Source of the DNA: Escherichia coli
GTDB lineage: Bacteria; Pseudomonadota; Gammaproteobacteria; Enterobacterales; Enterobacteriaceae
Assembly: GCF_003334785.1 (NCBI RefSeq)
Contig: NZ_QOWV01000022.1
Length of the DNA stretch: 54,561 bases
Reading direction: 5' to 3' (one strand)
In this document: one piece after another, positions 21,112 through 42,681 of the stretch
Layout of the letters: every line of letters starts with the position of its first letter
Numbering within the stretch: position 1 is the stretch's first letter
Notes under the pieces: generated by a model
Seen by the model: only the letters and a program-made list of their open reading frames with translations
Told to the model about the DNA's origin: nothing
The model's database searches: none
Made by a program: the position numbers and the translations under genes

Positions 21112-21120
21112 ACGTGGAGT

Positions 21121-23081: not shown

Positions 23082-23125
23082 GGGTGATAACGGTTAATCC
23101 ATTACCCCAACGACAGTATTACACC
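23082..23125 (+). repeat. Copy 1 of a roughly 45-bp direct repeat (core ATTACCCCAACGRCAGTWTTACACC)
   Basis: Core matches 33888..33912 at 23 of 25 positions, and GGGTGATA lies at identical spacing upstream in both copies. Confidence 0.7.
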
Positions 23126-23210
23126 GGTAATAAATGTTTATGAATACAGTCAGTTATGTGGGTTTTGAGGTGGGCTATATCATCGTTGACGATAACTGAA
23201 GGTTTTACAG

Positions 23211-23438
23211 ATGTATAAAACTCGCGGTGAAAGGATAGCAGAAAGGCTGTGCTGGATATTACTTCAACTGTATACCGGTAATACGGTATCGGTTAATGAT
23301 ATATGTCAGCGTTTCGCGGTCAGTCGCCGAACCGGACAGCGTGATTTGTTGAGAGTTGAAACTGTAACGGAAACTATTTCACCTGGAAGGGTAAGGCTGG
23401 CAAGTTTGATAAGGGAACGAGTTAGACGAAATTTTTAA
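23211..23438 (+). CDS. Small HTH protein resembling the N-terminal DNA-binding domain of WYL-type regulators (possibly a truncated remnant)
   Basis: 75 aa; ERIAERLCWILLQLYTGNTVSVNDICQRFAVSRRTGQRDL parallels the N-terminus of the WYL regulator at 24400..25302; no WYL domain follows. Confidence 0.4.
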   Translation: MYKTRGERIAERLCWILLQLYTGNTVSVNDICQRFAVSRRTGQRDLLRVETVTETISPGRVRLASLIRERVRRNF

Positions 23439-23519
23439 TCGAATCCATATCAATTCTATAAAATATGAAACTTAACGGGAGTAAATATATACTCCCGTTA
23501 TAATGCAACCTTTTTTTAA

Positions 23520-24338: not shown

Positions 24339-24399
24339 GGTAACTCCATTTTTTAGCTTACAAAAATAGCACTTAATGAAAATTATATTATCCGTGTCA

Positions 24400-25302
24400 T
24401 TACGGGGCGTTACTTGGCTGGGTGTAACGTTTCAGTGCGGATTGTATATCTTCAGCAAGTTGTTGACGGATTGAGGCCGGTTGTATTACTTCGACATCCG
24501 GTATCCAGTATTTCATTAAAGGCATTATCTGATCTGTGTGTGTTACACGTGATATCACCAGTAAATCGCCAGACCGGGAAGTATGAATTATTTCCTGTCC
24601 TGGCAATAGATGACGGTGGGTAAACCACGGAGCAACATGTGCGGAAACTGAAATAAGAACTTCGATAAGGTCTTCGCTATACCAGATACCATCTGTCTTT
24701 TCTATTTTTTCATTAATTTCGGGGATTATCCTGAAAGAGATATTACTCATGCAAACGTCTTTGACAGATGAGATAACAAAGCTTTTTAATGTACTGTCAT
24801 GGGCGGCAGCGAGATACCACAATCCGTTGTCATTAACCAGTCTGTATGGCTCAACAGCCCGAAACTCTTTATCTTTGTAATTAAAATTTACTTTCTTCTG
24901 TGACAGGATGGCATAGGATAATACATTCAGAATTGACATGAATGATCCGCAGTTTTCGTATGGACGTTGTTTTATCAGAAACGGGTTGTTTTTCGTGTTA
25001 CCTAACAAAATACTCAGTAGTCTGTCATCCCAGCGAGGGAACAGCCCTTCAATGCCCAGGATGCGCGTGAAATGACGTAAATCAGCATTGCTGCGTTGAC
25101 CGAGAACACCGTCAGACAGGCGATAGCGACCATTTTGTCGAATCAGATTAAGATAGGACAGGCGCTGAGTAAGATCACGACGGATAGTTTTTTCGCAAAC
25201 GTTAAATTCCTCAGATAACTCCCGGACGGCTAGTGACTCACCATTGTTCAGGCGAGTTAATATCAATCCGAGTCGATATCCAAGTTTATCGTGCTTACCC
25301 AT
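24400..25302 (-). CDS. WYL-domain transcriptional regulator (HTH + WYL)
   Basis: 300 aa; N-terminal HTH ([21 protein letters not shown]) and a central literal WYL motif ([12 protein letters not shown]). Confidence 0.75.
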
Positions 25303-25681
25303 TCGTTTATCCGGTTAATGCCAGCGAAGAGGATATTTTCAGCAAAGTAACGGACAGGATGAGTCCACTTTTACTGTGACGGAGAAAAAAATTAACTCAT
25401 TAATTATCAATATATTAAAGCATTGCTGGAATCATCGAATAACATGTGGACTCATCCTGTCCATGTGTATTTTTACGTTCAGGGTGATAATTATTATCCT
25501 GACCTGTACATGACCTGTTTTTGCTGCATATTTGACCATGCACTTTTGCCATCAAGTCGGAGAGGCAGGGGGGAACGTAAGATCCGAAGGTTAGAGAGGT
25601 TATCAGCAATTACAATGATGATTAATATTTTCATAATATCGGAGAACATCATATTAGTTGAAATAACATAAAGGTGGTTCT

Positions 25682-26008
25682 ATGTATTTACATATCAGAA
25701 AGTATCAACTCGTAAATGCGAGATGGCGTGATGTCATTGATCTGACAGATTATGAAGAAACAATCAGTCAGGTTGTCGGTACATTATTTGGAAATGATTT
25801 TATTGAGGTCAGCGTTGAAACAAATTGTTTTATTCTGACAGTAAACAGTACAAGCAGTAAAATACCACACGGCATACTGGTGAATATGGGGAAAAGGCTG
25901 GCTGCTAATCTCCAGAGTATCACCTGTCATGCCATGCGGATCTATCATGTAAATGGCCATCCTGACGCGCGGCAGTTATTTCACTGTTTTGATGCCGATT
26001 GCCTGTGA
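25682..26008 (+). CDS. Hypothetical protein (108 aa)
   Basis: ORF with a strong AAGGTGG ribosome-binding site 5 nt upstream. Confidence 0.45.
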   Translation: MYLHIRKYQLVNARWRDVIDLTDYEETISQVVGTLFGNDFIEVSVETNCFILTVNSTSSKIPHGILVNMGKRLAANLQSITCHAMRIYHVNGHPDARQLFHCFDADCL

Positions 26009-26056
26009 TTAAGCCCCCAACTTCTGTTAAAGGAGTTGGGGGAGATTTAACGGTTA

Positions 26057-28657: not shown

Positions 28658-28703
28658 AGTTAACTCCGAAAAAATGCCGGGAGCTGTGTCCCGGCATAAA
28701 GAA

Positions 28704-29342
28704 TCAAGATTTAATAACATTTACTACAGATTTGAAAATATCGGTTTTGCGTGATTCATCATCTGCATGGATAAATGAAACGAGGTTCCTGCCTGCTTTA
28801 ATCAGGATGCCACGTTGCGTCTTTTCCACAGATGGGGTGACGCGTGCAGATAACAGACAATTTTCATGTAACTGAAGAAACTTTTTTGAGGCGTAGCCGC
28901 CATGCAGTCGGGCTTTAATTTCATTATACATATCATCAAGAGAACCGGGTTCTCCTGATTCACTCAATACCGGATAGCCCTTCTTATCAAAAAGGCTGAG
29001 GATAGATTTACCATCATGTTCGAACAAGGTAACACCGTAAATGTATTTCATTCGAAAGGTGAGGGCGTCGGTGGTGTAGATCTCCTCCTGACAACTGAAA
29101 TTTTTGAGACGCCTGGCTAATTCATTAAAAACAGCACGAGCAGTAGCCGTGTCCTGCAGGGTGTAGGTATAAAGTACGAAGCCATCTGTGCCGATGAGCT
29201 TTACTAAGTTGTCCATAATCGTGATAGCGAGAACTAATGCAAAGGACAGATATTTTTCATCGTTGTCTACAGCTGTGCTTGCTGATTCGGGAATAATGTT
29301 CAGTGCATTATTAGCGTTATTTTCCGTGTTCTTAGTAACCAT
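28704..29342 (-). CDS. Hypothetical protein (212 aa) in an operon with the excisionase-like gene and the polymerase
   Basis: ORF between the Xis-like gene and the polymerase, same strand, short gaps. Confidence 0.5.
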   Translation of the reverse strand: MVTKNTENNANNALNIIPESASTAVDNDEKYLSFALVLAITIMDNLVKLIGTDGFVLYTYTLQDTATARAVFNELARRLKNFSCQEEIYTTDALTFRMKYIYGVTLFEHDGKSILSLFDKKGYPVLSESGEPGSLDDMYNEIKARLHGGYASKKFLQLHENCLLSARVTPSVEKTQRGILIKAGRNLVSFIHADDESRKTDIFKSVVNVIKS

Positions 29343-29532
29343 TTATATCACCTTTAAGTTTGTTTTGACGATGTGCATTTTCCCACTCAACAATATCGTC
29401 AAGAGAGAATCGTATAGCCCGCCCAATTCTGATGAAGGGCGGGAGTTTTCCGGGGTTGCGCGATATATCTGACGCAACCGTGGATGCAGAAAGATTAAAT
29501 CTTTCTGCGAACTGCTTAATGGTTAAATACAT
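29332..29532 (-). CDS. Excisionase / AlpA-like HTH DNA-binding protein
   Basis: 66 aa; LTIKQFAERFNLSASTV..IRIGRAIRFSLDDIVEWE is typical of the Xis/AlpA/MerR-like HTH family. Confidence 0.6.
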   Translation of the reverse strand: MYLTIKQFAERFNLSASTVASDISRNPGKLPPFIRIGRAIRFSLDDIVEWENAHRQNKLKGDINGY

Positions 29533-29674
29533 AAACCTCCGGTTTCAGAGAATAAGAAGCCACGCGGATTTAATATCAATCCACATTCTGTGATGACTTA
29601 ATGCAGGGCCCTGCAGAAGCATGCAATGACAATACCGTCCTTAAACGAGTGTTGCATCAATCACGAATCACAGA

Positions 29675-30811
29675 TCATAGGTTCATTTTTGTGTCATAAC
29701 TTTCTATGACCTGAGAAACCACTGCGTGTGATGTCGCTGCATTGTGAAAAGCGTAGCGACGGGTCGCCGTGAGTGAATGGTGATTTAGCAGATGGGAAGC
29801 GATTGCAATATCCCCGGTCGCCTGTAGTATCCGGGTGGCAAAGGTACGGCGCAGGTCATGCATCCGCAGGTTATCAATGTTGGCATCCCGACAAATACGG
29901 GCAAAGGTTGCACGCGGATATGCCAGAGGGCGGGCATTGTCGGTTAGTTGTGGAAAAATGTAAGTTTTGCTGAGCATCAGGTCCTGCTGGCACTGGACAA
30001 CTGCAATGGCTGGAGGTGCAAGTGGGCAGGTGAAAGGGTGTCCGGACTTTGTATCAGGCAGTATGAGTTGATGCATATCCGGGTGCCAGTACTCCCATTT
30101 CAGGGTACATACCTCACCAATACGCATCCCCGTATAAAGAGCAAGCAATATAGAATCAGCTGCCGGTGTTTGCAGCGCTGTTGCCGCGTCAATAAAGCGC
30201 GGGATTTCTGTCGCTGACAGCGTGCGATAGCGAATGTTATTTTCTTTCAGATAGCGGACATGTGACATCGGGGAATGTGTGATCCATCCAGCACGTACTG
30301 CCAGAGAGCATATTTTGGACAATATTGCGAGGATTCGGTTTACTGTTGACGGACGTAATTTTTCCCGTAAGCCAGCAGCATATTGTTCCAGTTCTCCTGC
30401 CGTGATGTCGCGAAGTTGCCGCTTGCCCCAGAACGGGCGAACGTAGAGGTTGAGTTTTGACAACTCTGACTGAGGACTCTTTTTATACAACTGCAAATCC
30501 GGTAGCCACAGGTCATTGATGGCCTGTTCCACAGTGAATCGACGGGACTGAACCGCAAGACGATTTTTATCAGCAAGCAGTTTCATCACATGCTGACGGG
30601 CATCCTCAACGCAGAGCTGAGGGAACTGACCCAGGGTTTCATATATACGCTGATTGTTTATAGTGGCACGAAAGGCCAGCGTGATCCGATTGGGATACAC
30701 CAGAGCACGCAGGTTTTGGCAGTGAATATCACGGTATTCCTGACAACCCGTGAGGGGATGTGGAAGTTGGTGAATTGATTTGTTGCTGAAACGCAGATCC
30801 AGAATAGGCAT
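29675..30811 (-). CDS. Tyrosine recombinase (XerC/phage-integrase family), second recombinase of the element
   Basis: 378 aa; catalytic-domain motifs RIGEVCTLKW, HDLRRTFATR, and a Tyr in TRRYAFH. Confidence 0.8.
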   Translation of the reverse strand: MPILDLRFSNKSIHQLPHPLTGCQEYRDIHCQNLRALVYPNRITLAFRATINNQRIYETLGQFPQLCVEDARQHVMKLLADKNRLAVQSRRFTVEQAINDLWLPDLQLYKKSPQSELSKLNLYVRPFWGKRQLRDITAGELEQYAAGLREKLRPSTVNRILAILSKICSLAVRAGWITHSPMSHVRYLKENNIRYRTLSATEIPRFIDAATALQTPAADSILLALYTGMRIGEVCTLKWEYWHPDMHQLILPDTKSGHPFTCPLAPPAIAVVQCQQDLMLSKTYIFPQLTDNARPLAYPRATFARICRDANIDNLRMHDLRRTFATRILQATGDIAIASHLLNHHSLTATRRYAFHNAATSHAVVSQVIESYDTKMNL

Positions 30812-30954
30812 CGTATTTCTCCTGTAAATGACACTGGAAAAATACGATGTGAGGTTATAGTCTGCCAGTTACAGCTTTCACAGTTCATCAGGTGAAAAAA
30901 CGCAGACTCGGATATAATGGCAACACAATTCCATGTCGCCATTATATTAAGAAA

Positions 30955-32085
30955 CTACAGTTTCATGATCTTGTTCGCTATTTTTTCGAAGTAAACCTCA
31001 TTCTTAAGAAGAGTGATATTGTTTGTTTGAACACCCAGACCACTGGAGGTTGACTGGAAGTTGAGTGAACCACTTATCACTGTGGACTTTCCTGATAAAA
31101 AGGAAATCAACTCCTTGGAAGATGGTGCCCACTCAGGGTTTAAGAGTAATGCAATATAGATATATGTCTTACGAAGCAATTGTTCGATATCTTTTTTATG
31201 CCCTGTAGTGTTTTGCTTACCTTTAATGCAAATAGATTTGATTATGAACTCATCAGGGCTGGTTAAAGGCGTTTTAAACTCACTCAGTGATTCATCGTTA
31301 CGAATGACTTCATAAGGCAGCATAGATAAAATGATCAATGCAATCATTTTAGGATGATAAAGGTAGTTATCACGAATGATTTTTCCTGCCTTCATTGTAT
31401 TGAGCGTTGTTTGAATAAATACAAAGTGATATTCAGAGCAAAAGTAACAAAACACAAGCCAGGATAGGTCAATGGCTGGAATGTTAATATCCTTAGGTAG
31501 TTTGTTTAGCCAGTATTCAGACTTCAAAAAGGTCCTGATTTCAACAGTATATTCATGCATTTTTGCGCTGAAATCAAGCATTGCTACTTGACCTGATTGT
31601 TCCGTAACTGTGTGGTCTATAAATGTTAGTGTATTGCACATTTTATCCAGCGTGTTTTGAAAACAAGAAAGGAGTTCGGCATTATTATTACCATTAACCG
31701 CAGATGAAAGTTCAGTTTTAATAAATGCATCCAGTAGCATACAGATTTCTTTCGGAATTACATTTTTACGGGATTGCTGTGAATAGAAATGTACTGCCAG
31801 TAAATTAAAGGCAGTGCACTCCTTTTTTAACCATTGTTCGAGCACTGGGACGTGCTGAAAAAAATTGATATGCTTAGCAGTAGATGCTGATGGAGATAGT
31901 ACATGAAGAATATCTACAGCAGGCTTCATTTGCAATATTTGATCGGATTCGGTAGTCGTCATTAGTTCCAGTAATTGCTGTTCAGAAAATAGTTTAGACA
32001 GGTGATCAATGTCTTTTTGGTATTGATTAAGTTTTGTTAAATTCCCCGGTATACGGGTTACATTGTTTTTCATTTTCTCGAACAT
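30955..32085 (-). CDS. Hypothetical protein (376 aa), AT-rich ORFan
   Basis: Long uninterrupted ORF in roughly 30-35% GC DNA; no motif recognised. Confidence 0.5.
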   Translation of the reverse strand: MFEKMKNNVTRIPGNLTKLNQYQKDIDHLSKLFSEQQLLELMTTTESDQILQMKPAVDILHVLSPSASTAKHINFFQHVPVLEQWLKKECTAFNLLAVHFYSQQSRKNVIPKEICMLLDAFIKTELSSAVNGNNNAELLSCFQNTLDKMCNTLTFIDHTVTEQSGQVAMLDFSAKMHEYTVEIRTFLKSEYWLNKLPKDINIPAIDLSWLVFCYFCSEYHFVFIQTTLNTMKAGKIIRDNYLYHPKMIALIILSMLPYEVIRNDESLSEFKTPLTSPDEFIIKSICIKGKQNTTGHKKDIEQLLRKTYIYIALLLNPEWAPSSKELISFLSGKSTVISGSLNFQSTSSGLGVQTNNITLLKNEVYFEKIANKIMKL

Positions 32086-32846
32086 AATTTTATCCTCGTT
32101 TAAATTATTACACTGATTTAAAAAGTAGCATGTCGTGTTAGCGAGGTAATCCTAAAACGTGAATGGCAGCAGGGGCAAGCTTGAATCTGCGTAAGGATAT
32201 GGCTTAAATTTAATGGTGTAATCAGTGAGTTAGAGGCTTATAGCCATTTAAATACAATAAGTTATGATGATATGTGGCGGGTGTAAATCGGTTAGTTTTT
32301 ATGTTTAAAATATGAGCGTTGTGAGATTTGAGATATGATGGTTTTTAAATTACATACAAGTTACCCCTGATGATCAGTATTAATACCAGAATGATACATG
32401 CGAGCAGCACCCAATCCTGTACTATTGATGATGACTATACAAGGCTGAAACTTTTAGTCGTATGTTGCCAGGAGGATTAATGTCCACAAGGCCCAGATAG
32501 AATGATTTCTCAGATATTAAAGTTGAAACTTATTAACTATGTGAGAGGCTGATATTTATTCAGTCTCTCATTTGTTTTTATCGTTTTAAAGTTAAAAGGA
32601 AATAAATAATGCCTTCCGCCGATGAATCAATGTGCTGATTTCCCTCAAATCAGCCTCAATACTACCAACATCACCAAAGACTTCACCTCTAATCTCACTT
32701 CGATTTTTCATGAAATTGGTGCTTAATAAGCTTTCTTTTTTTAATGCCATTAATTTTGGTTTTATATCGTTATAGAAATGCTTACGGCTTACCCTGATGC
32801 TATGAATCGAGTAGTAAACTGTTTTATACATCAAAAATATAAGTAA

Positions 32847-33824
32847 CTAGCCGAGAAGATATTCTTTTTCAATGTATTTATATTGAGAGGATTTTTCGCG
32901 TTTCGCCAGGTAGAAAACATGAGGTGCGATGATGGTGGGGATAAAATCCAGTGCTGGAGAGGTTTTGGTTTTTTCTGTTTCTCTTCCGGATTGAAGATGT
33001 TGAAGTACAGAGTATGCAATGCTTAAAATTATGGCGTTACTTATATTATTAATTGCAGTTGGGTAAATATGCAGATTGCTTATCAATTCTGAAAGGCAAA
33101 GTAAAACACCAGTGATGTTGGGTTTTCTGCCAGAGATTGTGGTGCTGTTGAAAATGTGACGATTCTTACGACTTATATTGACAAGTTTATGAGTGCAGAA
33201 CTCTATATGTTCGACGATTTTATCTTGACTATTTTTAATGTATTTTGAAATGTTAGTGATCCGGCCATTCAACGTTAGTTCATCAAGCAATATATCATTT
33301 TTAATATTGCGAATTTCATCGCAATGTTCACATTGAGAAACTATCTCATGTAATACATAACTCGAAGTATTGCGGGGTGACGTTGATATGTAATCTAAAA
33401 TAGAAGGCTCGATTTTGATTTTTTGTTTGTATTTTTTAATGCACTGTTTGATTGTTTTTTGTAGAGTATTTGAGATGTGTTTTTTATATTCTTTTAGAAA
33501 ATCTTGCTCTAAAAAGAGTGAGGAGAAGATCAACTGCTGGCGAGATAATTTAATCTCAGGCTTGATCAATTTAATCCGAAAAACTCTTCCCTCCAACTCA
33601 TAGCTGAACATGGAAGATAAGTCATAGTGGGGTGATAAATGTTCGAGTAACGACATTCGTGTATTCATTAGCCGCTTGAATTTATGGTCAGCATACATAA
33701 GTGTTTTTTTTATTTGCTCATCGTAAAGTGGGCCGATAACGCAATTAGCAATACTCATACTATCCGGAGACCTCCAGTCAACAGGGGAATCACATTGACG
33801 GCCACCATTACAATCAAAGGGCAT
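32847..33824 (-). CDS. Hypothetical protein (about 300-326 aa), AT-rich ORFan; start uncertain
   Basis: Long ORF; first ATG at 33824, alternative ATG at 33758 preceded by GGAGG. Confidence 0.45.
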   Translation of the reverse strand: MPFDCNGGRQCDSPVDWRSPDSMSIANCVIGPLYDEQIKKTLMYADHKFKRLMNTRMSLLEHLSPHYDLSSMFSYELEGRVFRIKLIKPEIKLSRQQLIFSSLFLEQDFLKEYKKHISNTLQKTIKQCIKKYKQKIKIEPSILDYISTSPRNTSSYVLHEIVSQCEHCDEIRNIKNDILLDELTLNGRITNISKYIKNSQDKIVEHIEFCTHKLVNISRKNRHIFNSTTISGRKPNITGVLLCLSELISNLHIYPTAINNISNAIILSIAYSVLQHLQSGRETEKTKTSPALDFIPTIIAPHVFYLAKREKSSQYKYIEKEYLLG

Positions 33825-33868
33825 CAACGTTGCCGATTATGGATCATGTCAGCTTCACACACCAGAAT

Positions 33869-34130: not shown

Positions 34131-35654
34131 ATGAACGACAAAATCAGTCAGGACACGATCAACAAAGCCCTGTGGGCCGCGTGTGATACGTTCCGTGGCA
34201 CCATCAGTGCTGATACCTATAAAGACTTTATCCTTACCATGCTGTTCCTCAAGTACATTTCAGATGTCTGGCAGGATCACTATGACGAATACAAAGAACA
34301 GTATGGCGATGCGCCGGAACTGATTGAAGCGATGATGGCCAACGAGCGTTTTGTACTGCCAAAAAGTGCCAGCTTTTATGCGCTGTACGAACGCCGCCAT
34401 GAGCCGGGTAACGGTGAGCGTATCGATCAGGCTCTGCATGCAATCGAAGAAGCCAACGGAACCAAACTGAAAGATGCCGGGAAAAGCGTGTTCCAGGATA
34501 TTTCGTTTAACACTGACCGCTTGGGTGAAGAAAAACAGAAGAACACCATCCTGCGTCAGTTGCTGGAAGACTTCGCCGGTGAAGATCTCAACCTGAAGCC
34601 AAGCCGTGTAGGTACGCTGGACGTTATCGGTAATGCCTACGAATATCTGATCAAAAACTTTGCCGCCAGCGGTGGGCAGAAAGCCGGGGAGTTCTATACC
34701 CCGCCGGAAGTTTCGGACCTGATTGCAGAACTGCTCGATCCGCAACCGGGTGATACCATCTGCGATCCAGCCTGTGGTTCCGGTTCATTATTGATGAAGT
34801 GTGGGCGTAAAATTGTCTCCGGGCATGATAGTCGTAACTATGCATTGTTCGGTCAGGAAGCGATCGGTTCTACGTGGTCGCTGGCGAAAATGAATATGTT
34901 CCTGCACGGGGAAGACAACCATAAAATCGAGTGGGGCGATACCATTCGTAACCCGAAGCTGCTCGATAAAAATGGCGACCTGATGCTGTTTGATATCGTG
35001 ACCGCTAACCCACCGTTCAGCCTCGATAAGTGGGGCCATGACGAGGCCGAGAACGATAAGTTTGGCCGTTTTCGTCGCGGTGTACCGCCGAAGACTAAAG
35101 GAGATTACGCTTTTATCTCGCATATGATCGAAACCCTGAAACCGGGAACTGGCCGTATGGGCGTAGTTGTGCCACACGGTGTGCTTTTCCGTGGCTCCAG
35201 CGAAGGTAAAATTCGCCAGAAACTGATCGACGAAAATTTGCTGGATGCGGTAATTGGTCTGCCGGAAAAACTGTTCTACGGTACGGGGATTCCGGCTGCG
35301 ATTCTGATTTTCAAAAAGCAGAAAGTTGATGACAAGGTGCTGTTTATCGATGCCAGCCGTGAATTCAAGGCAGGTAAAAACCAGAACCAGCTCAGCGCAG
35401 AAAACATCGAGAAAATCGTCAAGACCTACCGTGATGGCGATAACGTCGAGAAATACGCCTATCTTGCCAGCCTGAAAGAGATTCAGGACAACGATTACAA
35501 CCTTAATATTCCACGTTATGTTGATACTTTCGAGGAAGAAGACGAGATTGATTTACTGGTCGTGCGTGCTGAACGTGAGCAACTGAAGGTGGAACTGGCG
35601 AATCTGGAAACGGAGATGGCGGGTTATCTGAAGGAGTTGGGTTATGGTGCCTAA
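34131..35654 (+). CDS. hsdM: Type I restriction-modification system methyltransferase subunit
   Basis: 507 aa; AdoMet-binding DPACGSGSLL and catalytic NPPF (TANPPFS) of N6-adenine methyltransferases; followed by hsdS. Confidence 0.9.
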   Translation: MNDKISQDTINKALWAACDTFRGTISADTYKDFILTMLFLKYISDVWQDHYDEYKEQYGDAPELIEAMMANERFVLPKSASFYALYERRHEPGNGERIDQALHAIEEANGTKLKDAGKSVFQDISFNTDRLGEEKQKNTILRQLLEDFAGEDLNLKPSRVGTLDVIGNAYEYLIKNFAASGGQKAGEFYTPPEVSDLIAELLDPQPGDTICDPACGSGSLLMKCGRKIVSGHDSRNYALFGQEAIGSTWSLAKMNMFLHGEDNHKIEWGDTIRNPKLLDKNGDLMLFDIVTANPPFSLDKWGHDEAENDKFGRFRRGVPPKTKGDYAFISHMIETLKPGTGRMGVVVPHGVLFRGSSEGKIRQKLIDENLLDAVIGLPEKLFYGTGIPAAILIFKKQKVDDKVLFIDASREFKAGKNQNQLSAENIEKIVKTYRDGDNVEKYAYLASLKEIQDNDYNLNIPRYVDTFEEEDEIDLLVVRAEREQLKVELANLETEMAGYLKELGYGA

Positions 35655-36837
35655 GGGGTGGAGTGAAAGTTATCTTGGTGAAGTGGTTACATATAAAAAA
35701 GGCTATGCATTTAATTCATCATTATATGCAGAGGAAGGGATACGGATTGTTCGAATTTCGGACACAACTAGGGACTCCATCCATTCTGACAACCCTGTTT
35801 TTATTGCTGGCGGGAATGTCGAAGGTTTAGAGCAATACAGTCTTTTCGAAAACGATATAATACTCTCTACTGTGGGATCTCGACCACATTTACTGGACTC
35901 CATGGTTGGTAAAGCTGTAAAGGTTCCGCGCAGTGCACATAATAGCTTGCTTAATCAGAATCTTGTTAAACTCATACCGAAGAAAACAAAAATAACAAAT
36001 GAGTATCTTTTTAGCATGCTTAAAACAAAGGAATTTATACAATTCATCTCAAACTTGGTTCGTGGTAATGCAAACCAAGTCTCTATAACTTTGGCTGATC
36101 TTTTTAAATATAAATTCATCTTACCTTCCCTCCCCGAACAAAAGAAAATCGCCCAAATCCTGTCAACCTGGGATAAGGCGATTTCGGTGACGGAAAAGCT
36201 TCTCACCAACAGTCAGCAGCAGAAAAAAGCCCTGATGCAGCAATTACTTACCGGGAAGAAACGGTTGCTGGATGAGAATGGGGTGAGGTTTATCAAAAAA
36301 TGGGAAAAAACCACTTTAGGGGATATCGCAAAAATCACAACAGGTAGCTCTAATAGACAGGATTCAAGCTTGGATGGAAAGTATACTTTCTTTGACCGTT
36401 CTGAGGATATTAGAACTAGCAGTATTTATCTATTTGATGGAGAGGCAATTATAGTTCCTGGAGAAGGGCAGAGATTTGAACCAAAGTATTTCATTGGTAA
36501 ATTCGATCTTCACCAAAGAACCTACGCCATAATGGATTTTGCAAGCCATTCTGGGAGGTTTCTTTTCTACATGATTGATTATCTTAAAGTTTATTTTCTT
36601 AACCAAGCTGTGGGGTCAACTGTAAAGTCTTTACGACTTCCAATGTTTCAAAAAATGACCTTTGAAGCACCGGAAATTGAAGAACAACAAAAAATCGCCG
36701 CCGTCCTCTCCGCTGCCGATGCAGAAATCTCCACACTGGAGAAAAAACTCGCCTGCCTGAAGGGTGAGAAAAAAGCCCTGATGCAACAGCTGCTGACCGG
36801 TAAGCGTCGGGTGGTTGTTGATGTGGATGCCGCGTAA
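35644..36837 (+). CDS. hsdS: Type I restriction-modification system specificity subunit
   Basis: 397 aa; two target-recognition halves separated and followed by the conserved repeats KKALMQQLLTGKKRL and KKALMQQLLTGKRRV; start overlaps the hsdM end. Confidence 0.85.
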   Translation: MVPKGWSESYLGEVVTYKKGYAFNSSLYAEEGIRIVRISDTTRDSIHSDNPVFIAGGNVEGLEQYSLFENDIILSTVGSRPHLLDSMVGKAVKVPRSAHNSLLNQNLVKLIPKKTKITNEYLFSMLKTKEFIQFISNLVRGNANQVSITLADLFKYKFILPSLPEQKKIAQILSTWDKAISVTEKLLTNSQQQKKALMQQLLTGKKRLLDENGVRFIKKWEKTTLGDIAKITTGSSNRQDSSLDGKYTFFDRSEDIRTSSIYLFDGEAIIVPGEGQRFEPKYFIGKFDLHQRTYAIMDFASHSGRFLFYMIDYLKVYFLNQAVGSTVKSLRLPMFQKMTFEAPEIEEQQKIAAVLSAADAEISTLEKKLACLKGEKKALMQQLLTGKRRVVVDVDAA

Positions 36838-37520
36838 TGAAACTGACCAAAAACGCCCCGCTGACTGAGCGTGAAATCGACTGGCTGGAAGAGGTGCTGA
36901 TGAAGTATGGCAATGATGACTCGGTGCTCTGCTTCTCTGAACTGGATGGCTTTCTGACGGCGATTGTCTCCGGCCCGAATATGATTTCCCCGAATATCTG
37001 GCTCAGTGCCCTTTGGGGGCGGGGTGATTACCACCCTCGCTGGACCACTGAAAAAGAGATGACGCGTTTTGTGGGGCTGTGTTTTCAGCATATGAACGAT
37101 ATCGCTGGCTGCCTGTATGAGGCCCCTGAACAGTTTGAACCGATTTTCAATGGACGTGAGGTGAAGGGGAAGACATATACCATCGTCGAAGAGTGGTGTT
37201 TCGGGTATATGAAAGGCCGGTCTCTGGATGACTGGTCAGCCTTGCCAGAGGCCTTACGTCCCTCGCTGGAGGCGATAGCCCTTCATGGTATCGAAAAGAA
37301 CTTCCCAGTGGTTGAGAAAATGTCACCTGTTCAATTTGAACAGAGTATTACTCTCATTCAGCCTGCGGCACTGGCGCTTTACCAGCACTGGTTGTCGGTG
37401 AGAATGTCAGAGGCATCATCCCGGCCTGTTCCCGTGAAGGGGGCAGAAAAACTGCCCGGTCGTAATGACCCGTGTCAGTGTGGCAGTGGTAAAAAATTTA
37501 AAAAGTGCTGCCTGCACTGA
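36837..37520 (+). CDS. YecA-like protein (UPF0149 domain with C-terminal SEC-C metal-binding motif) embedded in the hsd operon
   Basis: 227 aa; C-terminal GRNDPCQCGSGKKFKKCC is a SEC-C motif; overall resemblance to E. coli YecA as recalled; start shares the hsdS stop (ATGA overlap). Confidence 0.65.
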   Translation: MKLTKNAPLTEREIDWLEEVLMKYGNDDSVLCFSELDGFLTAIVSGPNMISPNIWLSALWGRGDYHPRWTTEKEMTRFVGLCFQHMNDIAGCLYEAPEQFEPIFNGREVKGKTYTIVEEWCFGYMKGRSLDDWSALPEALRPSLEAIALHGIEKNFPVVEKMSPVQFEQSITLIQPAALALYQHWLSVRMSEASSRPVPVKGAEKLPGRNDPCQCGSGKKFKKCCLH

Positions 37521-37542
37521 CAAAGCGGAAGGGGGCTTGCTC

Positions 37543-39327
37543 ATGGCAGTGAACAATCTGGATCGTTCCCGGTGGTACATGGGAAATGTTCTCTGGTTCG
37601 GAGGCTACAACAGCAAAACGGATCGGGAGAATAACTTTGGCTTTCTCTTATCAGAGAATGGTAATGAGCTGTTTTTTCATAAGAATGAGATAAGCCGGAA
37701 CTATACACCCGCTGACAATACACCGGTGCTGTTCAGGGAAGGTACAGGTAAAAATGGTAAGCCTACGGCTTTTAATGTTCACATTCTTGATAAAACAGAT
37801 GAGGAGACGGCTGAGCTCCTTATTGAATATCTCCGGGCTATTATTGAGGAGGGCGTTGATTTCGCTCGTTGGCGTTATCGTGACTGCGTTATTAATTTTC
37901 TCACTCAGTCCTTTGGCGAAAGGGCTATAATTCGGTTAGTTACCAGTGATATAGCTGCTACAAAAGTCTTGCCGCTATTTTTAAAATCACGTAACTACGA
38001 TAACCAGTTTGCACTTTTCGCCTCTGATAAGAATTTTGATGATTTGACCGCACAACAAATATCTCCTGCGGTCATGCCTTCGTCATTTATCGATAATAAC
38101 ATTGATCAGTTCGCTGTTTGGGTGAAAAGGTGTTCTGCGGCTACGGATTGCCAGGGGGCTTCAACATCGGACATCATCAATGAATTACTCAGCCATATAT
38201 CTATAAGTGCTATTCTCTACCTGGCATTTTACGATTGTATAAGCAGCGAGCGGATTCTTGAACATCGGCATGATGATATAGAGAATTTTGTTCGACGTAG
38301 TTTCACGAAAAATAAAATGGATATACAACCATTTGTCCGTGATGCCTATCAGCAGAAATTCTCATCGAGAGAGCAATTTTATAAACATTCCGTGATTAGT
38401 CCTTTTGTCAATAAGTATTTGATTAAACAGAAGATGTTCAGGAAAGATTTCAGTTTTGTTAATGATATTGAGTCGAATACTGAAATTTCTTCTGACCCTG
38501 AATACTTTATTCTGAGTAAATTGTTACCGCTGATTGGGCGTAACGATGAACAGTCCGTTCTGAGTATTATTCTGCATGAGATATGGCAGGGAGTGTTGTC
38601 GGGTAAAATCCCGGTAAGCCATCCTTCTGTTTTCAAATTGTTCCCACAGTGTAGCTCATTGAAAATTCGTTCCCGGAATTTAAAATTATCCTGTGAGGCA
38701 TTTCACTGGAATGCAAAACAACCTGACGGAACGATAGAGAAAAAATTCCTTTGTCGTTCGAAAATCTGCCATGATCCGCAGGTACTGCCCGACCTCAGTC
38801 GGGATTACATCGACTTCACTATTTATGACTGGCTTGCCCACTATGGCATGACCTATCTGATTGCAGGCGAACCTTCTAAGCGGGATTTCCCAATTAAACT
38901 GGCTGGGTATTTCAATCGTATCAGAGAATTACATTCCCGCTTGCATTGCCGAAGTTGTGGGGTGCTGATGGTTCCAGATATGAAATATGCTCGTGTGGAA
39001 GTCAGCGTCTGGGATACAAAGTCGAAAGGATTTGTGAAAAAACCTTTCCAGGCCGCGTATCGCCTGACCGTCTTTAAATGTGCCAGTCATTCGTGCGAAC
39101 AGTTTGGTATCGGGCATTACATTAATCACTGTATTGGTTACAAATGCAGCGAAATAATTGACGCCAGGGATTTGCATGAAAAATGTTCAGAAGGACGATT
39201 TATTTGTGCATCCTGTGGTTCCTGCTGTACGACGCATCAGGAGAAATTTGGTAATGTAAACAAGGGCGAAACAGAACAGGTCAAGTACAATCGCCTTTAT
39301 CGGGACTCGCCGTTCTTTTCATCATAA
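37543..39327 (+). CDS. Cold-shock-domain (OB-fold) protein with large uncharacterised middle region and Cys-rich C-terminus, embedded in the hsd operon
   Basis: Start at MAVNNLD (AAGGGGG upstream). N-terminus GNVLWFGG..NFGFL..ELFFHKNEI..KPTAFNV parallels CspA (GIVKWFN..GFGFI..DVFVHFSAI); C-terminus has several CxxC/CxxxxC clusters. Confidence 0.6.
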   Translation: MAVNNLDRSRWYMGNVLWFGGYNSKTDRENNFGFLLSENGNELFFHKNEISRNYTPADNTPVLFREGTGKNGKPTAFNVHILDKTDEETAELLIEYLRAIIEEGVDFARWRYRDCVINFLTQSFGERAIIRLVTSDIAATKVLPLFLKSRNYDNQFALFASDKNFDDLTAQQISPAVMPSSFIDNNIDQFAVWVKRCSAATDCQGASTSDIINELLSHISISAILYLAFYDCISSERILEHRHDDIENFVRRSFTKNKMDIQPFVRDAYQQKFSSREQFYKHSVISPFVNKYLIKQKMFRKDFSFVNDIESNTEISSDPEYFILSKLLPLIGRNDEQSVLSIILHEIWQGVLSGKIPVSHPSVFKLFPQCSSLKIRSRNLKLSCEAFHWNAKQPDGTIEKKFLCRSKICHDPQVLPDLSRDYIDFTIYDWLAHYGMTYLIAGEPSKRDFPIKLAGYFNRIRELHSRLHCRSCGVLMVPDMKYARVEVSVWDTKSKGFVKKPFQAAYRLTVFKCASHSCEQFGIGHYINHCIGYKCSEIIDARDLHEKCSEGRFICASCGSCCTTHQEKFGNVNKGETEQVKYNRLYRDSPFFSS

Positions 39328-39396: not shown

Positions 39397-42300
39397 GTGG
39401 ATAAGCACTACCAACCTAAATTCCAGGAAGAATACAGCGCCAAAATTCCGGCACTGACGTTACTGACCAGCCTCGGCTGGACGTTTTTATCTCCGAAACA
39501 GATTATGGATTACCGGGGCTATAAACAGGATGAGGTGGTGCTGCGTCCGGTTCTGCGTGAAGAGCTGTCGAAGCGTTCCTTTATGGCGGGTGGCAAAACC
39601 TGCCAGTTATCGGAAAAAGCACTGGATAACCTGATATCACAGGTCTGTTCTCCGGCGCTGAATGAAGGGCTGCTCAAAGCCAATGAACGGATGTATAACC
39701 ATCTGCTCTACGGTATCGCCGTCACGGAGTTTGTCGATGGCAAGAAGGTCAACCCCACCATTGCGCTGATCGACTGGGAACATCCGGAAAATAACCAGTT
39801 CCATTTTACTGAAGAATTTACGGTATTGCGGTCAGGTGGTGTTGAAACCCGGAGGCCAGATATTGTCTGCTTTGTTAATGGTATCCCGCTGGCTGTTATT
39901 GAAGCGAAAAGCCCGGCAGGCCACGGCAAGAAAGGACCAACCATTGACGAAGGGATATCCCAGAGTATCCGCAACCAGCTCAACGATGAAATCCCGCAGC
40001 TGTTTGCTTACAGCCAGATATTACTATCGATTAACGGGCATGACGGGCGCTACGGTACCTGTCATACACCAATGAAATTCTGGGCGGCATGGCGCGAAGA
40101 AGATATTACCGATGCGCAGATGTATGCTCTGCGCAACCATCCTTTATCGACTGAACAAATTCATGCGTTGTTTGATCATCGTCCATCAGCCGATCTCAAC
40201 TGGTACCAACAGTTAATCGCCGCCGGTGAACTGGCTGTCAGTGGACAGGACAAACTGCTCATCAGCCTGCTTTCGCCGGAACGTCTGCTGGAGATGACCC
40301 GCTTCTTCACTCTGTTTGATAAAAAGACCGGGAAAATTGTCGCCCGCTATCAGCAGGTGTTCGGGATAAAAAGACTGCTGGAACGCATCAGTACCCGCAG
40401 ACCAGACGGGGGCAGGGAAGGTGGGGTGATCTGGCATACCACGGGGTCAGGTAAATCTTACACCATGGTGTTCCTCAGCAAGGCGCTGATTCTTCATGAC
40501 AGCCTGAAGCGGTGTCGTATTGTGGTGGTGACGGACCGTATCGATCTTGAAGAACAGCTCAGCAATACCTTTGCATCCGGCGGCGAGTTGGCCGGGAAAA
40601 AAGACAAAGCCAATGCAATGGCAACATCCGGGCAGATGCTGGCGAAACAGATTGGCTCCGGTAAAGAACGCATCATTTTCACCCTAATCCAGAAATTTAA
40701 TTCAGCGACAAAACTTCCTGAATGCGTCAATACCAGCCCCGATATCATCGTTCTGATTGATGAAGGACACCGTAGCCAGGGTGGTGAGAACCATGTGCGA
40801 ATGAAACTGGCACTGCCGAACGCCGCCTTTGTGGCATTTACTGGTACGCCATTGCTAAAAGAAGATAAGACCACCAATAAATTCGGACCGATTGTCCACG
40901 CTTATACCATGCAGCGAGCGGTAGAAGATAAAGCCGTTACACCTTTGCTGTATGAAGAACGTATTCCCGACCTTGAGGTTAACGATCGGGCAATAGATGC
41001 CTGGTTTGATCGTATTACCGATGGGTTAAGCGAAGCGCAAAAAGCCGACCTTAAGCGTAAATATGCCCGTAAAGGTGAGGTCTACAGTGCAGATGACCGC
41101 ATCCGGCTGATCGCACTCGATATCGCCACACACTTCTCGAAGAATATTGATGAGGGGCTGAAAGGCCAGCTTGCCTGCGACAGCAAGATTTCCGCCATCA
41201 AATATAAAAAGTATCTTGATGAAGCCGGGTTGTTTGAGTCAGCAGTAGTTATCAGCCCGCCGGATACCCGGGAAGGGAATACTGAGGTGGATGAAAGCAA
41301 ACTGCCGGAAGTGACGAAATGGTGGAAGGATAATGTCGGCACGCAGGATGAGTCTGTGTATACCCGCAATATCATCAGTCGTTTCGATACCGATGAGAAG
41401 CTCAAATTGCTGATAGTCGTTGATAAACTGCTCACCGGGTTTGATGAGCCGAAGAATACCGTGCTGTATATCGACAAGCCGCTTAAGTCCCACAACCTTA
41501 TCCAGGCGATTGCGCGGGTGAACCGACTGCATCCACTGAAAAAGTTCGGTCTGCTGATTGATTATCGCGGTATTCTGGCTGAGCTGGACACGACTATCGG
41601 CAAATATCAGGACCTCGCCTCCCGAACTCAGGGCGGATACGATATCAAAGATATTGACGGGCTGTACAGCGCCATGAGCTCTGAATACAAGCGTCTACCG
41701 CATCTGTATAACCAGCTGTGGGCCATATTTGCTGGTGTCAAAAACAAAAATGATACTGAGCAGTTACGTGCGGTACTGGTGCCTAAAATGGAAGAACGTG
41801 ACGGAGAGATGGTCGATATCCATCAGAAAACCCGTGATGATTTCTTCGAGGCGTTAACGGCCTTTGCCGGATGCCTGAAAGTGGCACTGCAGTCCGCTAC
41901 CTTCTTCACCGACAAGAGCTTTACGGAACAAGACCGAAATCTCTATAAAGAAACCGTAAAACAGATGTCCAGCCTGCGCCAGTGGGCGATGCAGGTAAGT
42001 GGAGAGCAGGTCAATTATGACGACTACGCCGAGCAGGTGAAAAAACTGCTGGATAAGCATGTCACCGGCGTTGAGGTTCGTGAACCGGATGGCGTGTATG
42101 AAGTCGGTAAAATGGGCAAGAGCGAAAAGCCCGAAGAGTGGGACAACAATAAAACCCGCAATGAAACCGACATCATTAAAACCCGTGTGACAAAGATGAT
42201 TGAGCAGGAGCTGCGTGATGACCCGTATGCTCAGGAAGCCTTTTCAAAACTCCTGCGTATGGCTATTGAAGAGGCTGAAAAACTGTTCGACCATCCGTTG

Positions 42301-42681
42301 AAACAGTATCTCTTGTTCCGTGAATTTGAAGAACAGGTTGAAGCCCGTAAGCTCAGCGATATCCCGGATGCACTGGCGGTAAACAAGCATGCTCAGGCGT
42401 ATTACGGTGTATTTAAAAAAGAGCTACCTGAGGTTTTTGCGGTAAACGACGTTCAGGTGCAGGATAAGTGGACGAAGCTGGCTTTTGAAGTGGACAACAT
42501 TATCGTCAAAGCGGTGGCAGAAAACTCTCTGAACCCCCAGGACATTGAGAAAGTCGTTAAGACAAGTCTGCTACCACTGCTGTTTACGGCCTGCCGGGAA
42601 ATTGGTGCCGGAATGAATCAGGTTAACCGTATTGTGGAAACCATCATCCAGATACTGCGCGTTGGTTTGATGAAATCATGA
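39397..42681 (+). CDS. hsdR: Type I restriction enzyme endonuclease/helicase subunit
   Basis: 1094 aa, GTG start with AAGAAGGA ribosome-binding site; helicase motif I (HTTGSGKS) and motif II (LIDEGHRSQ). Confidence 0.9.
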   Translation: MDKHYQPKFQEEYSAKIPALTLLTSLGWTFLSPKQIMDYRGYKQDEVVLRPVLREELSKRSFMAGGKTCQLSEKALDNLISQVCSPALNEGLLKANERMYNHLLYGIAVTEFVDGKKVNPTIALIDWEHPENNQFHFTEEFTVLRSGGVETRRPDIVCFVNGIPLAVIEAKSPAGHGKKGPTIDEGISQSIRNQLNDEIPQLFAYSQILLSINGHDGRYGTCHTPMKFWAAWREEDITDAQMYALRNHPLSTEQIHALFDHRPSADLNWYQQLIAAGELAVSGQDKLLISLLSPERLLEMTRFFTLFDKKTGKIVARYQQVFGIKRLLERISTRRPDGGREGGVIWHTTGSGKSYTMVFLSKALILHDSLKRCRIVVVTDRIDLEEQLSNTFASGGELAGKKDKANAMATSGQMLAKQIGSGKERIIFTLIQKFNSATKLPECVNTSPDIIVLIDEGHRSQGGENHVRMKLALPNAAFVAFTGTPLLKEDKTTNKFGPIVHAYTMQRAVEDKAVTPLLYEERIPDLEVNDRAIDAWFDRITDGLSEAQKADLKRKYARKGEVYSADDRIRLIALDIATHFSKNIDEGLKGQLACDSKISAIKYKKYLDEAGLFESAVVISPPDTREGNTEVDESKLPEVTKWWKDNVGTQDESVYTRNIISRFDTDEKLKLLIVVDKLLTGFDEPKNTVLYIDKPLKSHNLIQAIARVNRLHPLKKFGLLIDYRGILAELDTTIGKYQDLASRTQGGYDIKDIDGLYSAMSSEYKRLPHLYNQLWAIFAGVKNKNDTEQLRAVLVPKMEERDGEMVDIHQKTRDDFFEALTAFAGCLKVALQSATFFTDKSFTEQDRNLYKETVKQMSSLRQWAMQVSGEQVNYDDYAEQVKKLLDKHVTGVEVREPDGVYEVGKMGKSEKPEEWDNNKTRNETDIIKTRVTKMIEQELRDDPYAQEAFSKLLRMAIEEAEKLFDHPLKQYLLFREFEEQVEARKLSDIPDALAVNKHAQAYYGVFKKELPEVFAVNDVQVQDKWTKLAFEVDNIIVKAVAENSLNPQDIEKVVKTSLLPLLFTACREIGAGMNQVNRIVETIIQILRVGLMKS

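What the first reader, a model, noticed from the sequence alone, without database searches (positions are those of the whole stretch)
36837..39327. YecA-like SEC-C protein plus cold-shock-domain/Cys-rich protein embedded in the hsd operon: candidate undescribed restriction-associated effector pair
The 227-aa protein shares its start with the hsdS stop and ends in a SEC-C zinc motif. The following roughly 594-aa protein begins with a clear cold-shock OB-fold and ends with clustered Cys motifs. A nucleic-acid-binding sensor domain joined to a zinc-binding module inside a restriction operon suggests a latent effector held in check by the restriction complex. A core yecA normally lies next to leuZ, so this is a mobile paralogue.
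Basis: partly seen in the sequence, partly recalled or inferred. Interest (0 to 1): 0.7.

Follow-up and report, generated by a model that had tools for sequence, protein, structure and literature searches.

The report
Two accessory genes inside restriction operon
A mobile restriction-modification operon in an E. coli defence island carries two extra, separately acquired genes between its S and R subunits: a copy of the chaperone YecA that is already listed as a defence candidate, and an uncharacterised nucleic-acid-binding, zinc-rich protein that also turns up inside other restriction and BREX operons and so is a plausible untested anti-phage gene.

Summary
Between hsdS and hsdR lie a 227-aa YecA paralogue (UPF0149 + SEC-C; its start overlaps the hsdS stop, TAATG) and a 594-aa protein with an N-terminal cold-shock domain, a helical middle and a C-terminal domain with 16 invariant Cys.

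The "effector pair" reading is only partly supported, because the two genes are separable:
- The YecA-like gene sits in every intact operon of this enterobacterial type I R-M lineage that I inspected, with or without the CSD gene (418 E. coli genomes carry it, 199 carry both). It matches PADLOC candidate PDC-S12, which the sources read here do not report as tested.
- The CSD-zinc gene is a separate cassette. Without any YecA it sits in the same S-R slot in Vibrio and Aeromonas, inside or next to BREX operons, in an ICE variable region and in other islands.

Most likely the CSD-zinc protein is an autonomous nucleic-acid-sensing defence candidate and the YecA copy is an R-M accessory or chaperone. 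A PrrC-like guard role remains possible. No function has been tested.

The parts
34131..35654 (+). hsdM, type I R-M methyltransferase subunit (507 aa)
   Evidence: PADLOC MTase_I 2.9e-132; NCBIfam TIGR00497 284.7 bits
35644..36837 (+). hsdS, specificity subunit (397 aa). It overlaps hsdM by 11 nt.
   Evidence: PADLOC Specificity_I 1.2e-104; only 32-51% identical between otherwise near-identical operons
36837..37520 (+). Mobile YecA/AscA paralogue (227 aa): UPF0149 domain (nt 36879-37391) plus SecA-like SEC-C metal-binding motif (nt 37461-37511). Matches PADLOC candidate PDC-S12.
   Evidence: TAATG overlap with hsdS; dN/dS 0.08-0.16 between alleles
37543..39327 (+). CSD-helical-zinc protein (594 aa). 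An upstream in-frame ATG at 37465 would give 620 aa.
   Evidence: RBS GGAAGGGGG before 37543; 82 homologous clusters; AlphaFold2 pLDDT 85.4; dN/dS 0.16-0.21
37573..37785 (+). Cold-shock (OB-fold) domain, residues about 11-81. It has a 7-residue GGYNSKT insertion after the conserved WF.
37801..38607 (+). All-helical middle region, residues about 87-355. It varies in length between family members.
   Evidence: DSSP of the model; repeated or expanded in the roughly 911-aa Vibrio variants; poorly conserved
38608..39252 (+). Cys-rich C-terminal domain, residues about 356-570, and the best conserved part. Invariant Cys: 370, 384, 404, 409, 469, 472, 513, 518, 530, 535, 548, 555, 558, 561, 562. Other invariant residues: H529, E385, W389, R405, W430, D448, N458, R459, Y482, R484, Y506, R507, D540, R542.
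39397..42681 (+). hsdR, restriction/translocase subunit (1094 aa, GTG start)
   Evidence: PADLOC REase_I 1373.6 bits; TIGR00348 462.5 bits
42678..43433 (+). M48/YgjP-like (DUF45) zinc metallopeptidase. It overlaps the hsdR stop by 4 nt and is conserved with this hsdR family.
   Evidence: RefSeq annotation in homologous loci; Pfam YgjP-like in the Vibrio, Aeromonas and metagenomic versions

Best explanation
Two independent accessory genes occupy the hsdS-hsdR slot of a mobile type I R-M operon. The operon is carried by a pipolin-type defence island inserted at tRNA-Leu (leuZ).

(1) The YecA-like gene.
- Shown: it is a diverged paralogue of the chaperone YecA/AscA. It is translationally coupled to hsdS and is present in every intact operon of this enterobacterial R-M lineage that I inspected.
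- Inferred: it acts as an accessory or adaptor of the R-M complex. Its UPF0149 domain would bind a protein client, and its SecA-like zinc tail would tether to SecB or ribosomes, as shown for core YecA. It is probably not an effector.

(2) The CSD-zinc gene.
- Shown: it is a self-contained, separately mobile single-gene cassette.
- Inferred: the cold-shock domain binds single-stranded nucleic acid made during infection. The variable helical region couples this to the conserved multi-zinc C-terminal domain. That domain then binds or cleaves nucleic acid, or blocks gene expression, and limits phage or plasmid propagation.
- Inferred: it works alongside R-M or BREX as a complementary layer and does not need them.
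For: Architecture and coupling:
- Gene order, overlaps and absence of convincing internal terminators.

YecA-like gene:
- Domain and family matches; 58% identical to core YecA.
- The mobile clade (>= 69% identity) is separated by a gap from core YecAs (<= 59%).
- It follows hsdS in all inspected loci.
- In 5426 complete E. coli genomes this hsdR is in 541, the YecA-like gene in 418 and the pair in 199. The two hsdR-only genomes I inspected are IS1-truncated operons.
- Core YecA (AscA) binds SecB and ribosomes through its metal-binding domain and prevents protein aggregation in vitro.

CSD-zinc gene is independent:
- Homology with the CSD-less operon breaks immediately after the yecA' stop codon.
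- Same S-R slot without YecA in Vibrio and Aeromonas.
- After brxL, between pglX and pglZ and directly upstream of pglZ.
- Between transfer genes of an integrative conjugative element.
- In islands with integrases, or with Avs4, DruE-like, GajB-like or LeoBC-like neighbours.

CSD-zinc domains:
- The CSD is real and keeps invariant W18 and F34, which align with the nucleic-acid-binding aromatic positions of Csp proteins.
- Distant superfamily members keep a CSD, and a few carry a HARP (DNA-binding) domain.
- The C-terminal domain is the most conserved part, with invariant Arg, Tyr, Asp, Glu and His.

Other:
- Purifying selection on both genes.
- Precedents for functional genes embedded in R-M or BREX operons: TgvAB, BrxU, PrrC, HECs.
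- The same island carries Hhe and GmrSD-like genes.
Against: - No experiment on either protein was found in the literature searches.
- Some homologues lie in neighbourhoods with no evident defence or mobile genes: Erwinia, between regulators and metabolic genes, and Aeromonas sobria.
- The context census covers only 16 lineages out of 82 or more clusters.
- For the YecA-like protein, no interaction with any Hsd subunit was tested. Its alleles are far more diverged than the flanking hsdM and hsdR. That fits an interface with a variable partner, but it equally fits hitch-hiking with hsdS recombination.
Confidence: 0.5

Rival explanations
1. PrrC-like guard. One or both proteins are latent toxic effectors kept silent by the intact R-M (or BREX) complex. 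They are released when a phage anti-restriction protein disables that complex, and the infection is aborted.
For: - The position between hsdS and hsdR is that of prrC, which is found almost only embedded in type I R-M.
- The CSD-zinc gene recurs in both type I R-M and BREX. Both systems rely on N6-adenine methyltransferases, and the phage protein Ocr suppresses the BREX methyltransferase (paper listed). That type I R-M and BREX share this inhibitor is my background knowledge.
- YecA-like alleles are highly diverged next to conserved hsdM and hsdR, as expected for a protein at a host-phage interface.
Against: - Ten of 16 CSD-zinc lineages have no R-M or BREX operon adjacent, so an obligate partner complex is unlikely for the family.
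- There is no PrrC-type ATPase or anticodon-nuclease domain and no PADLOC PrrC hit.
- The YecA-like protein is a close paralogue of a non-toxic chaperone.
Confidence: 0.17
2. Regulatory or assembly accessories of the restriction enzyme rather than defence effectors. The YecA-like chaperone assists folding or assembly of Hsd subunits, or delays HsdR activity. The CSD protein acts as an RNA chaperone or translational regulator of the downstream hsdR message, for example to delay restriction when the operon enters a new host.
For: - Both genes sit immediately upstream of hsdR in one tightly packed operon.
- Core YecA has chaperone activity.
- CSDs generally bind RNA. That CSD proteins act as RNA chaperones or antiterminators is background knowledge.
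- The YecA-like gene is constant in intact operons of this lineage.
Against: - The same R-M family works in Vibrio and Aeromonas layouts without YecA and in E. coli without the CSD gene. Neither gene is therefore required by the enzyme family.
- A 594-aa protein with a large, deeply conserved zinc domain, found in ICEs and other islands far from any hsdR, is more than an hsdR regulator.
Confidence: 0.2
3. Cargo that serves the mobile element rather than the host. The function could be anti-defence, inter-element competition or element maintenance, with the S-R slot being only a permissive insertion site.
For: - All copies lie on mobile elements: pipolin, IncF plasmids, an ICE.
- The pipolin paper reports that PDC-S12 and type I R-M genes are exchanged between pipolins, plasmids and other integrative elements.
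Against: - Repeated insertion specifically inside R-M and BREX operons, in the same orientation and with tight spacing, is the pattern of embedded defence genes.
- No phage genome among 50,697 records encodes the CSD-zinc protein, which argues against a phage anti-defence role.
Confidence: 0.08

Closest known systems
YecA / AscA (E. coli UPF0149 protein with a SecA-like metal-binding domain)
   Same: Full-length collinear match at 58% identity, with the same UPF0149 + SEC-C architecture. It scores above the NCBIfam equivalog cut-off.
   Different: It is not at the core locus. It is translationally coupled to hsdS on a mobile island, and the core copy is present as well. It belongs to a separate clade (>= 69% versus <= 59% identity). 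Its alleles are far more diverged than the neighbouring hsdM and hsdR.
PADLOC phage-defence candidate PDC-S12
   Same: The HMM matches over its whole length (1.7e-97). The gene is embedded in type I R-M, which is how PDC candidates were defined. PDC-S12 is reported as frequent in enterobacterial pipolins.
   Different: PDC-S12 is listed as a single-gene system. Here it looks like a fixed part of one R-M lineage and was never seen away from an hsdS gene or hsdS remnant. The papers read here report no functional test of it.
PrrC / RloC and other genes embedded between hsdS and hsdR (also TgvAB, Rlo genes)
   Same: Same operon position and the same idea of a second function nested in a type I R-M operon.
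   Different: No ABC-ATPase, anticodon-nuclease or GmrSD (DUF262) domain, and no PADLOC hit to these families. The CSD-zinc family is also common outside R-M.
Cold-shock proteins (CspA family) and CSD modules in CoCoNuT type IV restriction systems
   Same: A genuine CSD fold with the conserved aromatic positions. CSDs fused to defence proteins are predicted RNA or ssDNA binders.
   Different: The CSD is about 70 of 594 residues and has a 7-residue loop insertion. It is joined to a helical region and a multi-zinc domain that are absent from Csp proteins and from the CoCoNuT components described.
Multi-zinc-ribbon domains of unknown function (double zinc ribbon, TackOD1)
   Same: Many Cys motifs in a small beta-rich domain. 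One distant AlphaFold DB match carries the 'Thaumarchaeal output domain' label. TackOD1 is itself uncharacterised.
   Different: Pfam reports no TackOD1 or DZR match for this protein even at E <= 10. The Cys spacing differs (CX13C, CX4C, CX2C, CX4C and others, rather than five CXXC motifs). The link is one annotation among 50 hits.

Membership tests
YecA/AscA (UPF0149 + SEC-C) | UPF0149 domain followed by a C-terminal SecA-like CXCX8C(C/H) metal-binding motif | tested here: met
   Pfam UPF0149 3.9e-29 and SEC-C 1.8e-7; the tail ...GRNDPCQCGSGKKFKKCCLH aligns with core YecA and matches SecA MBD peptides in the PDB
YecA/AscA (UPF0149 + SEC-C) | Scores above the curated NCBIfam equivalog cut-off | tested here: met
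   NF007704: 347.4 bits against a cut-off of 149
YecA/AscA (UPF0149 + SEC-C) | Orthologue at the conserved chromosomal locus (tRNA-Leu ... yecA-tyrP) | tested here: not met
   It lies in the hsd operon. The core yecA is a separate gene at the island's far end in related genomes. It forms a distinct clade.
YecA/AscA (UPF0149 + SEC-C) | Binds SecB and ribosomes through the MBD; has chaperone activity | not testable with these tools
   Known for core YecA only
PADLOC PDC-S12 (defence candidate) | Match to the PDC-S12 HMM | tested here: met
   1.7e-97, residues 6-227 on profile positions 3-218 of 218
PADLOC PDC-S12 (defence candidate) | Anti-phage activity | not testable with these tools
   PDCs were predicted by embedding and offered for future functional study. 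No experimental paper was found.
Cold-shock domain proteins | Five-stranded OB-fold CSD with conserved aromatic nucleic-acid-binding residues | tested here: met
Cold-shock domain proteins | Small single-domain protein (about 70 aa) of the CspA type | tested here: not met
   594 aa with two further regions
PrrC/RloC-type R-M-embedded anticodon nucleases | Gene located between hsdS and hsdR of a type I R-M operon | tested here: met
PrrC/RloC-type R-M-embedded anticodon nucleases | N-terminal ABC-ATPase-like domain and C-terminal anticodon-nuclease domain | tested here: not met
   No PADLOC, Pfam or NCBIfam hit of that kind in either protein
PrrC/RloC-type R-M-embedded anticodon nucleases | Kept latent by the R-M complex and activated by a phage anti-restriction factor | not testable with these tools
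   Needs genetics or biochemistry. Indirect argument against: most family members lack an adjacent R-M or BREX operon.
GmrSD/TgvAB/BrxU embedded type IV restriction | DUF262 (ParB-like NTPase) and DUF1524 (HNH-like) domains | tested here: not met
   Absent from both proteins. Such genes do occur downstream in the island.
Known nuclease or other enzyme folds for the zinc-rich C-terminal domain | Structural or profile similarity to a characterised catalytic domain | tested here: not met
TackOD1 / double zinc ribbon | Match to PF18551 or PF12773; five CXXC motifs plus HXXC | tested here: inconclusive
   No Pfam hit for this protein. One distant AFDB relative carries the label. One of 53 distant members has a weak DZR hit, E 5e-3.

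The most novel reading that the evidence does not exclude
The CSD-zinc protein founds a widespread, uncharacterised family of single-protein immune sensors/effectors. A cold-shock (or HARP) nucleic-acid sensor is wired to a new multi-zinc fold with a new biochemical activity. In its embedded forms it guards methylation-based systems (type I R-M and BREX), firing when phage anti-restriction factors or phage single-stranded nucleic acids appear. In this reading the co-embedded YecA paralogue links the restriction complex to ribosomes or SecB as part of that surveillance.
Probability: 0.15. Interest if true: 0.8.

Novelty: new variant of a known kind. Interest (0 to 1): 0.52.

Why it matters
- Genes nested inside R-M and BREX operons have repeatedly proved to be working defence systems (PrrC, BrxU, TgvAB, HECs).
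- This locus offers two untested cases in clinically common contexts: about 8% of complete E. coli genomes carry the YecA-like gene, about 4% carry both genes, and over 130 Klebsiella plasmids carry both.
- The CSD-zinc family is large (hundreds of clusters across phyla). It has a confidently predicted domain with no solved analogue and is absent from the defence catalogues searched here. Characterising it could reveal a new sensing or effector chemistry.
- The YecA paralogue would be the first link between a SecA-type metal-binding tail and a restriction enzyme. It could also shed light on what the poorly understood core YecA does.
- Natural operon variants with and without each gene exist, so the comparison is directly testable.

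Tried and rejected
- Fold search of the full-length model returned only CSD/OB-fold matches. I therefore modelled the C-terminal domain alone. It still had no PDB analogue and no significant PDB sequence match.
- The best of those sequence matches, the Vps4 MIT domain at E 0.58 over ...PSKRDFPIKLAGYFNRIREL..., is not significant. I do not use it.
- I read the Cys/His pattern as a possible HNH (CXXC...H...CXXC..H) by eye. I rejected it for lack of any Pfam, PADLOC or structural support.
- The 'Thaumarchaeal output domain' label on one AFDB hit led only to another uncharacterised zinc domain.
- I looked for a recurring link between the CSD-zinc protein and SEC-C proteins. A 110-aa SEC-C protein follows the Vibrio operon, and YchJ-like and SEC-C genes lie 2-3 kb away in Pseudomonas. 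These are too few and probably core genes, so this is not claimed.
- The supplements of Payne et al. held here contain neither 'PDC-S12' nor 'cold shock'.
- Literature searches by protein accession found nothing.
- Promoter and terminator scans gave no more hits than shuffled controls for promoters, and no convincing + strand terminator inside the operon.
- No phage genome encodes the CSD-zinc protein.


Full report
**1. What is there**

The window holds a + strand operon:
- hsdM, 34131-35654
- hsdS, 35644-36837
- a 227-aa ORF, 36837-37520
- a 594-aa ORF, 37543-39327 (620 aa from an upstream ATG)
- hsdR, 39397-42681
- an M48/YgjP-like peptidase, 42678-43433

The Hsd assignments are unambiguous. 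The 227-aa ORF starts on the last base of the hsdS stop codon (TAATG). The 594-aa start is preceded by GGAAGGGGG. I found no convincing + strand terminator inside the operon.

The operon sits in an island that begins after tRNA-Gly/Cys/Leu(taa) at 18529-18830.
- The island encodes an 887-aa protein at 26057-28720. Its position and the literature identify it as the primer-independent PolB of a pipolin. This is inferred, because no family library matched it.
- It also encodes tyrosine recombinases, a WYL protein, two GmrSD/HEC-06-like DUF262 proteins and the anti-phage helicase Hhe.
- Related E. coli genomes show the same island between tRNA-Leu and the core yecA-tyrP genes.
- A pipolin study names this insertion site and lists 'Type 1 RM, PDC-S12' among frequent pipolin cargo.

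**2. The YecA-like protein**

- Pfam finds UPF0149 (3.9e-29) and SEC-C (1.8e-7).
- The NCBIfam YecA equivalog scores 347 bits against a cut-off of 149.
- It is 58% identical to the core YecA over the full length, including the GRNDPC.CGSGKKFK.CC tail.
- PADLOC's candidate model PDC-S12 matches at 1.7e-97. PADLOC's PDC candidates were derived by 'guilt-by-embedding' in BREX, DISARM and type I R-M operons and were offered for future functional study.
- In the protein database, relatives split cleanly into a mobile clade (69-88% identity, about 24 clusters) and the core YecAs of Enterobacterales (<= 59%).

Members of the mobile clade follow hsdS or an hsdS remnant in every locus I inspected:
- with the CSD gene;
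- without it, in ETEC H10407, strain L1_E925 and a metagenomic contig;
- in degraded loci.

Among 5426 complete E. coli genomes, this hsdR is in 541, the YecA-like gene in 418 and the pair in 199. The hsdR-only cases I opened are IS1-truncated operons that keep a 210-bp remnant of the CSD gene.

Alleles are under purifying selection (dN/dS 0.08-0.16). They are much more diverged (71-89% amino-acid identity) than the flanking HsdM and HsdR (96-99%) in the same loci. The hsdS-yecA' segment therefore has a deeper history than the rest of the operon.

Core YecA (AscA) binds SecB and ribosomes through its metal-binding domain and prevents aggregation in vitro. By inference the mobile copy is a chaperone or adaptor attached to this R-M lineage. 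It is not required by the wider enzyme family, because the Vibrio and Aeromonas versions lack it.

**3. The CSD-zinc protein**

- The single sequence hits Pfam CSD only weakly (2.3e-4). A profile of 38 homologues hits solved cold-shock proteins at 2.9e-9.
- W18, G20, G21, G33 and F34 are invariant.
- Residues about 87-355 are helical, poorly conserved, and expanded by internal repetition in roughly 911-aa variants.
- Residues about 356-570 are the best conserved part. They hold 16 invariant Cys plus H529, enough for about four zinc sites by my reading of the spacing. Invariant E385, R405, D448, N458, R459, Y482, R484, Y506, R507, D540 and R542 lie here too.
- Against AlphaFold DB it finds 50 proteins at E <= 1e-3 from Proteobacteria, Bacteroidota, Firmicutes, Deinococcus and others. 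They are 470-1180 aa and many are labelled CSD-containing.
- A profile search of 1.84 billion representatives finds 836 clusters at E <= 1e-3 and 467 at <= 1e-10. In the 150 best matches the domain lies at or near the C-terminus.
- Of 53 distant members, 13-24 have a detectable CSD, 3-4 have a HARP domain, and none has an enzymatic Pfam domain.
- PADLOC v2.0.0, NCBIfam 20.0 and PHROGs have no model for the family.
- dN/dS is 0.16-0.21.

**4. Where the CSD-zinc gene lives**

The full-length family has 82 clusters at 90% identity. I obtained context for 16 lineages.
- Three lineages are in the S-R slot of the same type I R-M family: Enterobacterales with YecA', and Vibrio and Aeromonas without it.
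- Three lineages are in or against BREX operons: after brxL in Tritonibacter and Cognatishimia, between pglX and pglZ in a metagenome, and directly upstream of pglZ-brxL in Pseudohongiella.
- One lineage lies between transfer genes of an integrative conjugative element in Vibrio metschnikovii.
- Five lineages are in islands with integrases or with Avs4, DruE-like, GajB-like, LeoBC-like or Mrr/NERD neighbours.
- Four have no evident defence link or were not examined further (Erwinia, Aeromonas sobria, Pararhodobacter, a deltaproteobacterial MAG).

Comparison with the CSD-less E. coli operon shows that homology ends right after the yecA' stop codon, as expected for a cassette insertion. No phage record encodes the protein. 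On plasmids only the enterobacterial version occurs: 132 records, almost all Klebsiella.

**5. Interpretation**

The two genes are not an obligate pair. Each occurs without the other in otherwise homologous operons.
- The YecA-like gene behaves as a lineage-specific accessory of one R-M family and is already catalogued as candidate PDC-S12.
- The CSD-zinc gene behaves as an autonomous cassette that repeatedly lands inside methylation-based defence operons. This is the pattern that identified BrxU, TgvAB, PrrC and the HEC systems.

I therefore favour an independent, complementary defence function. The shown part is a nucleic-acid-binding sensor, with the invariant CSD aromatic positions and HARP-bearing relatives. 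The inferred part is that this sensor is coupled to the conserved zinc domain. CSD modules in other predicted defence systems are thought to bind RNA or ssDNA.

A PrrC-like guard role is attractive because type I R-M and BREX share phage inhibitors. That is background knowledge plus the paper listed. It is weakened by the many family members that have no such neighbour. A purely regulatory or assembly role, or a role serving the mobile element, cannot be excluded.

**6. Novelty and score**

- The embedding principle and the YecA-like candidate are known.
- New here: the YecA-like gene is fixed to one R-M lineage and mosaic with hsdS.
- Also new: the CSD-zinc protein belongs to a large, uncatalogued superfamily with a structurally unmatched zinc domain and recurrent R-M and BREX embedding.
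- Nothing is tested, and hundreds of embedded candidates already exist. I therefore rate it a new variant of a known kind, with moderate interest.

Noticed in passing
window 42678-43433 (also L013 15122-15928, L015 7357-8148, L019 8936-9691, L020 8453-9208): An M48/YgjP-like (DUF45, SprT/WLM-like) zinc metallopeptidase overlaps the hsdR stop codon by 4 nt. It accompanies this hsdR family from E. coli to Vibrio and Aeromonas. It has no PADLOC or NCBIfam hit. Its role is unexplained; proteolytic control of HsdR is one possibility.
   Followed up: partly
window 35644-37520 compared with L008, L009, L019, L020: Mosaic operon. HsdM, HsdR and M48 are 92-99% identical between loci, while HsdS is 32-51% and the YecA-like protein 71-89% identical (dS 0.6-1.8 between YecA-like alleles). 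The YecA-like gene seems to travel or diversify with the variable hsdS segment.
   Followed up: partly
window 44088-45542 and 45535-47577: Two adjacent, overlapping DUF262/GmrSD-like genes (484 and 680 aa; PADLOC HEC-06, Orf5 and SspE N-terminal hits). The arrangement is reminiscent of the two-protein TgvAB type IV system, but here it lies downstream of the R-M operon after IS fragments (43491-44066).
   Followed up: partly
window 47752-53181: An 1809-aa anti-phage helicase Hhe (NCBIfam NF042953, 2623 bits against a cut-off of 2000; PADLOC Hhe). Together with the other cargo this makes the region a multi-system defence island.
   Followed up: yes
window 18529-33827: Left part of the island after tRNA-Gly/Cys/Leu. 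It holds tyrosine recombinases (19864-21111 and 29675-30811), a WYL regulator (24400-25302) and an 887-aa protein (26057-28720) that is likely the pipolin piPolB but matched no library. It also holds low-GC (35-36%) genes of unknown function at 30955-33827 with no family hits.
   Followed up: partly
L011 9001-9210 and L053 (E. coli KMi006, DA33133): A recurrent IS1-mediated truncation removes hsdM, hsdS, yecA' and most of the CSD gene. It leaves a 210-bp 3' remnant in front of an intact hsdR-M48. A TIR-domain gene, a group II intron and a hok/gef gene lie upstream. An orphan hsdR without M and S subunits is presumably inactive.
   Followed up: partly
L016 11897-20132 and L033 14088-18060: Dynamin-like or LeoBC-like GTPase genes lie next to CSD-zinc genes in two unrelated loci, one of them inside a BREX operon. 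This is possibly a recurring neighbour, but it was not examined further.
   Followed up: no
L013 16022-16354: A 110-aa protein ending in a SEC-C motif (...NEPCSCGSGKKYKKCCA) follows the YgjP-like gene of the Vibrio R-M operon. That operon carries the CSD-zinc gene but no YecA-like gene. PADLOC E2 and E1-E2 models also match the SEC-C tail of the YecA-like protein, which hints that SEC-C tails recur on defence-island proteins.
   Followed up: no
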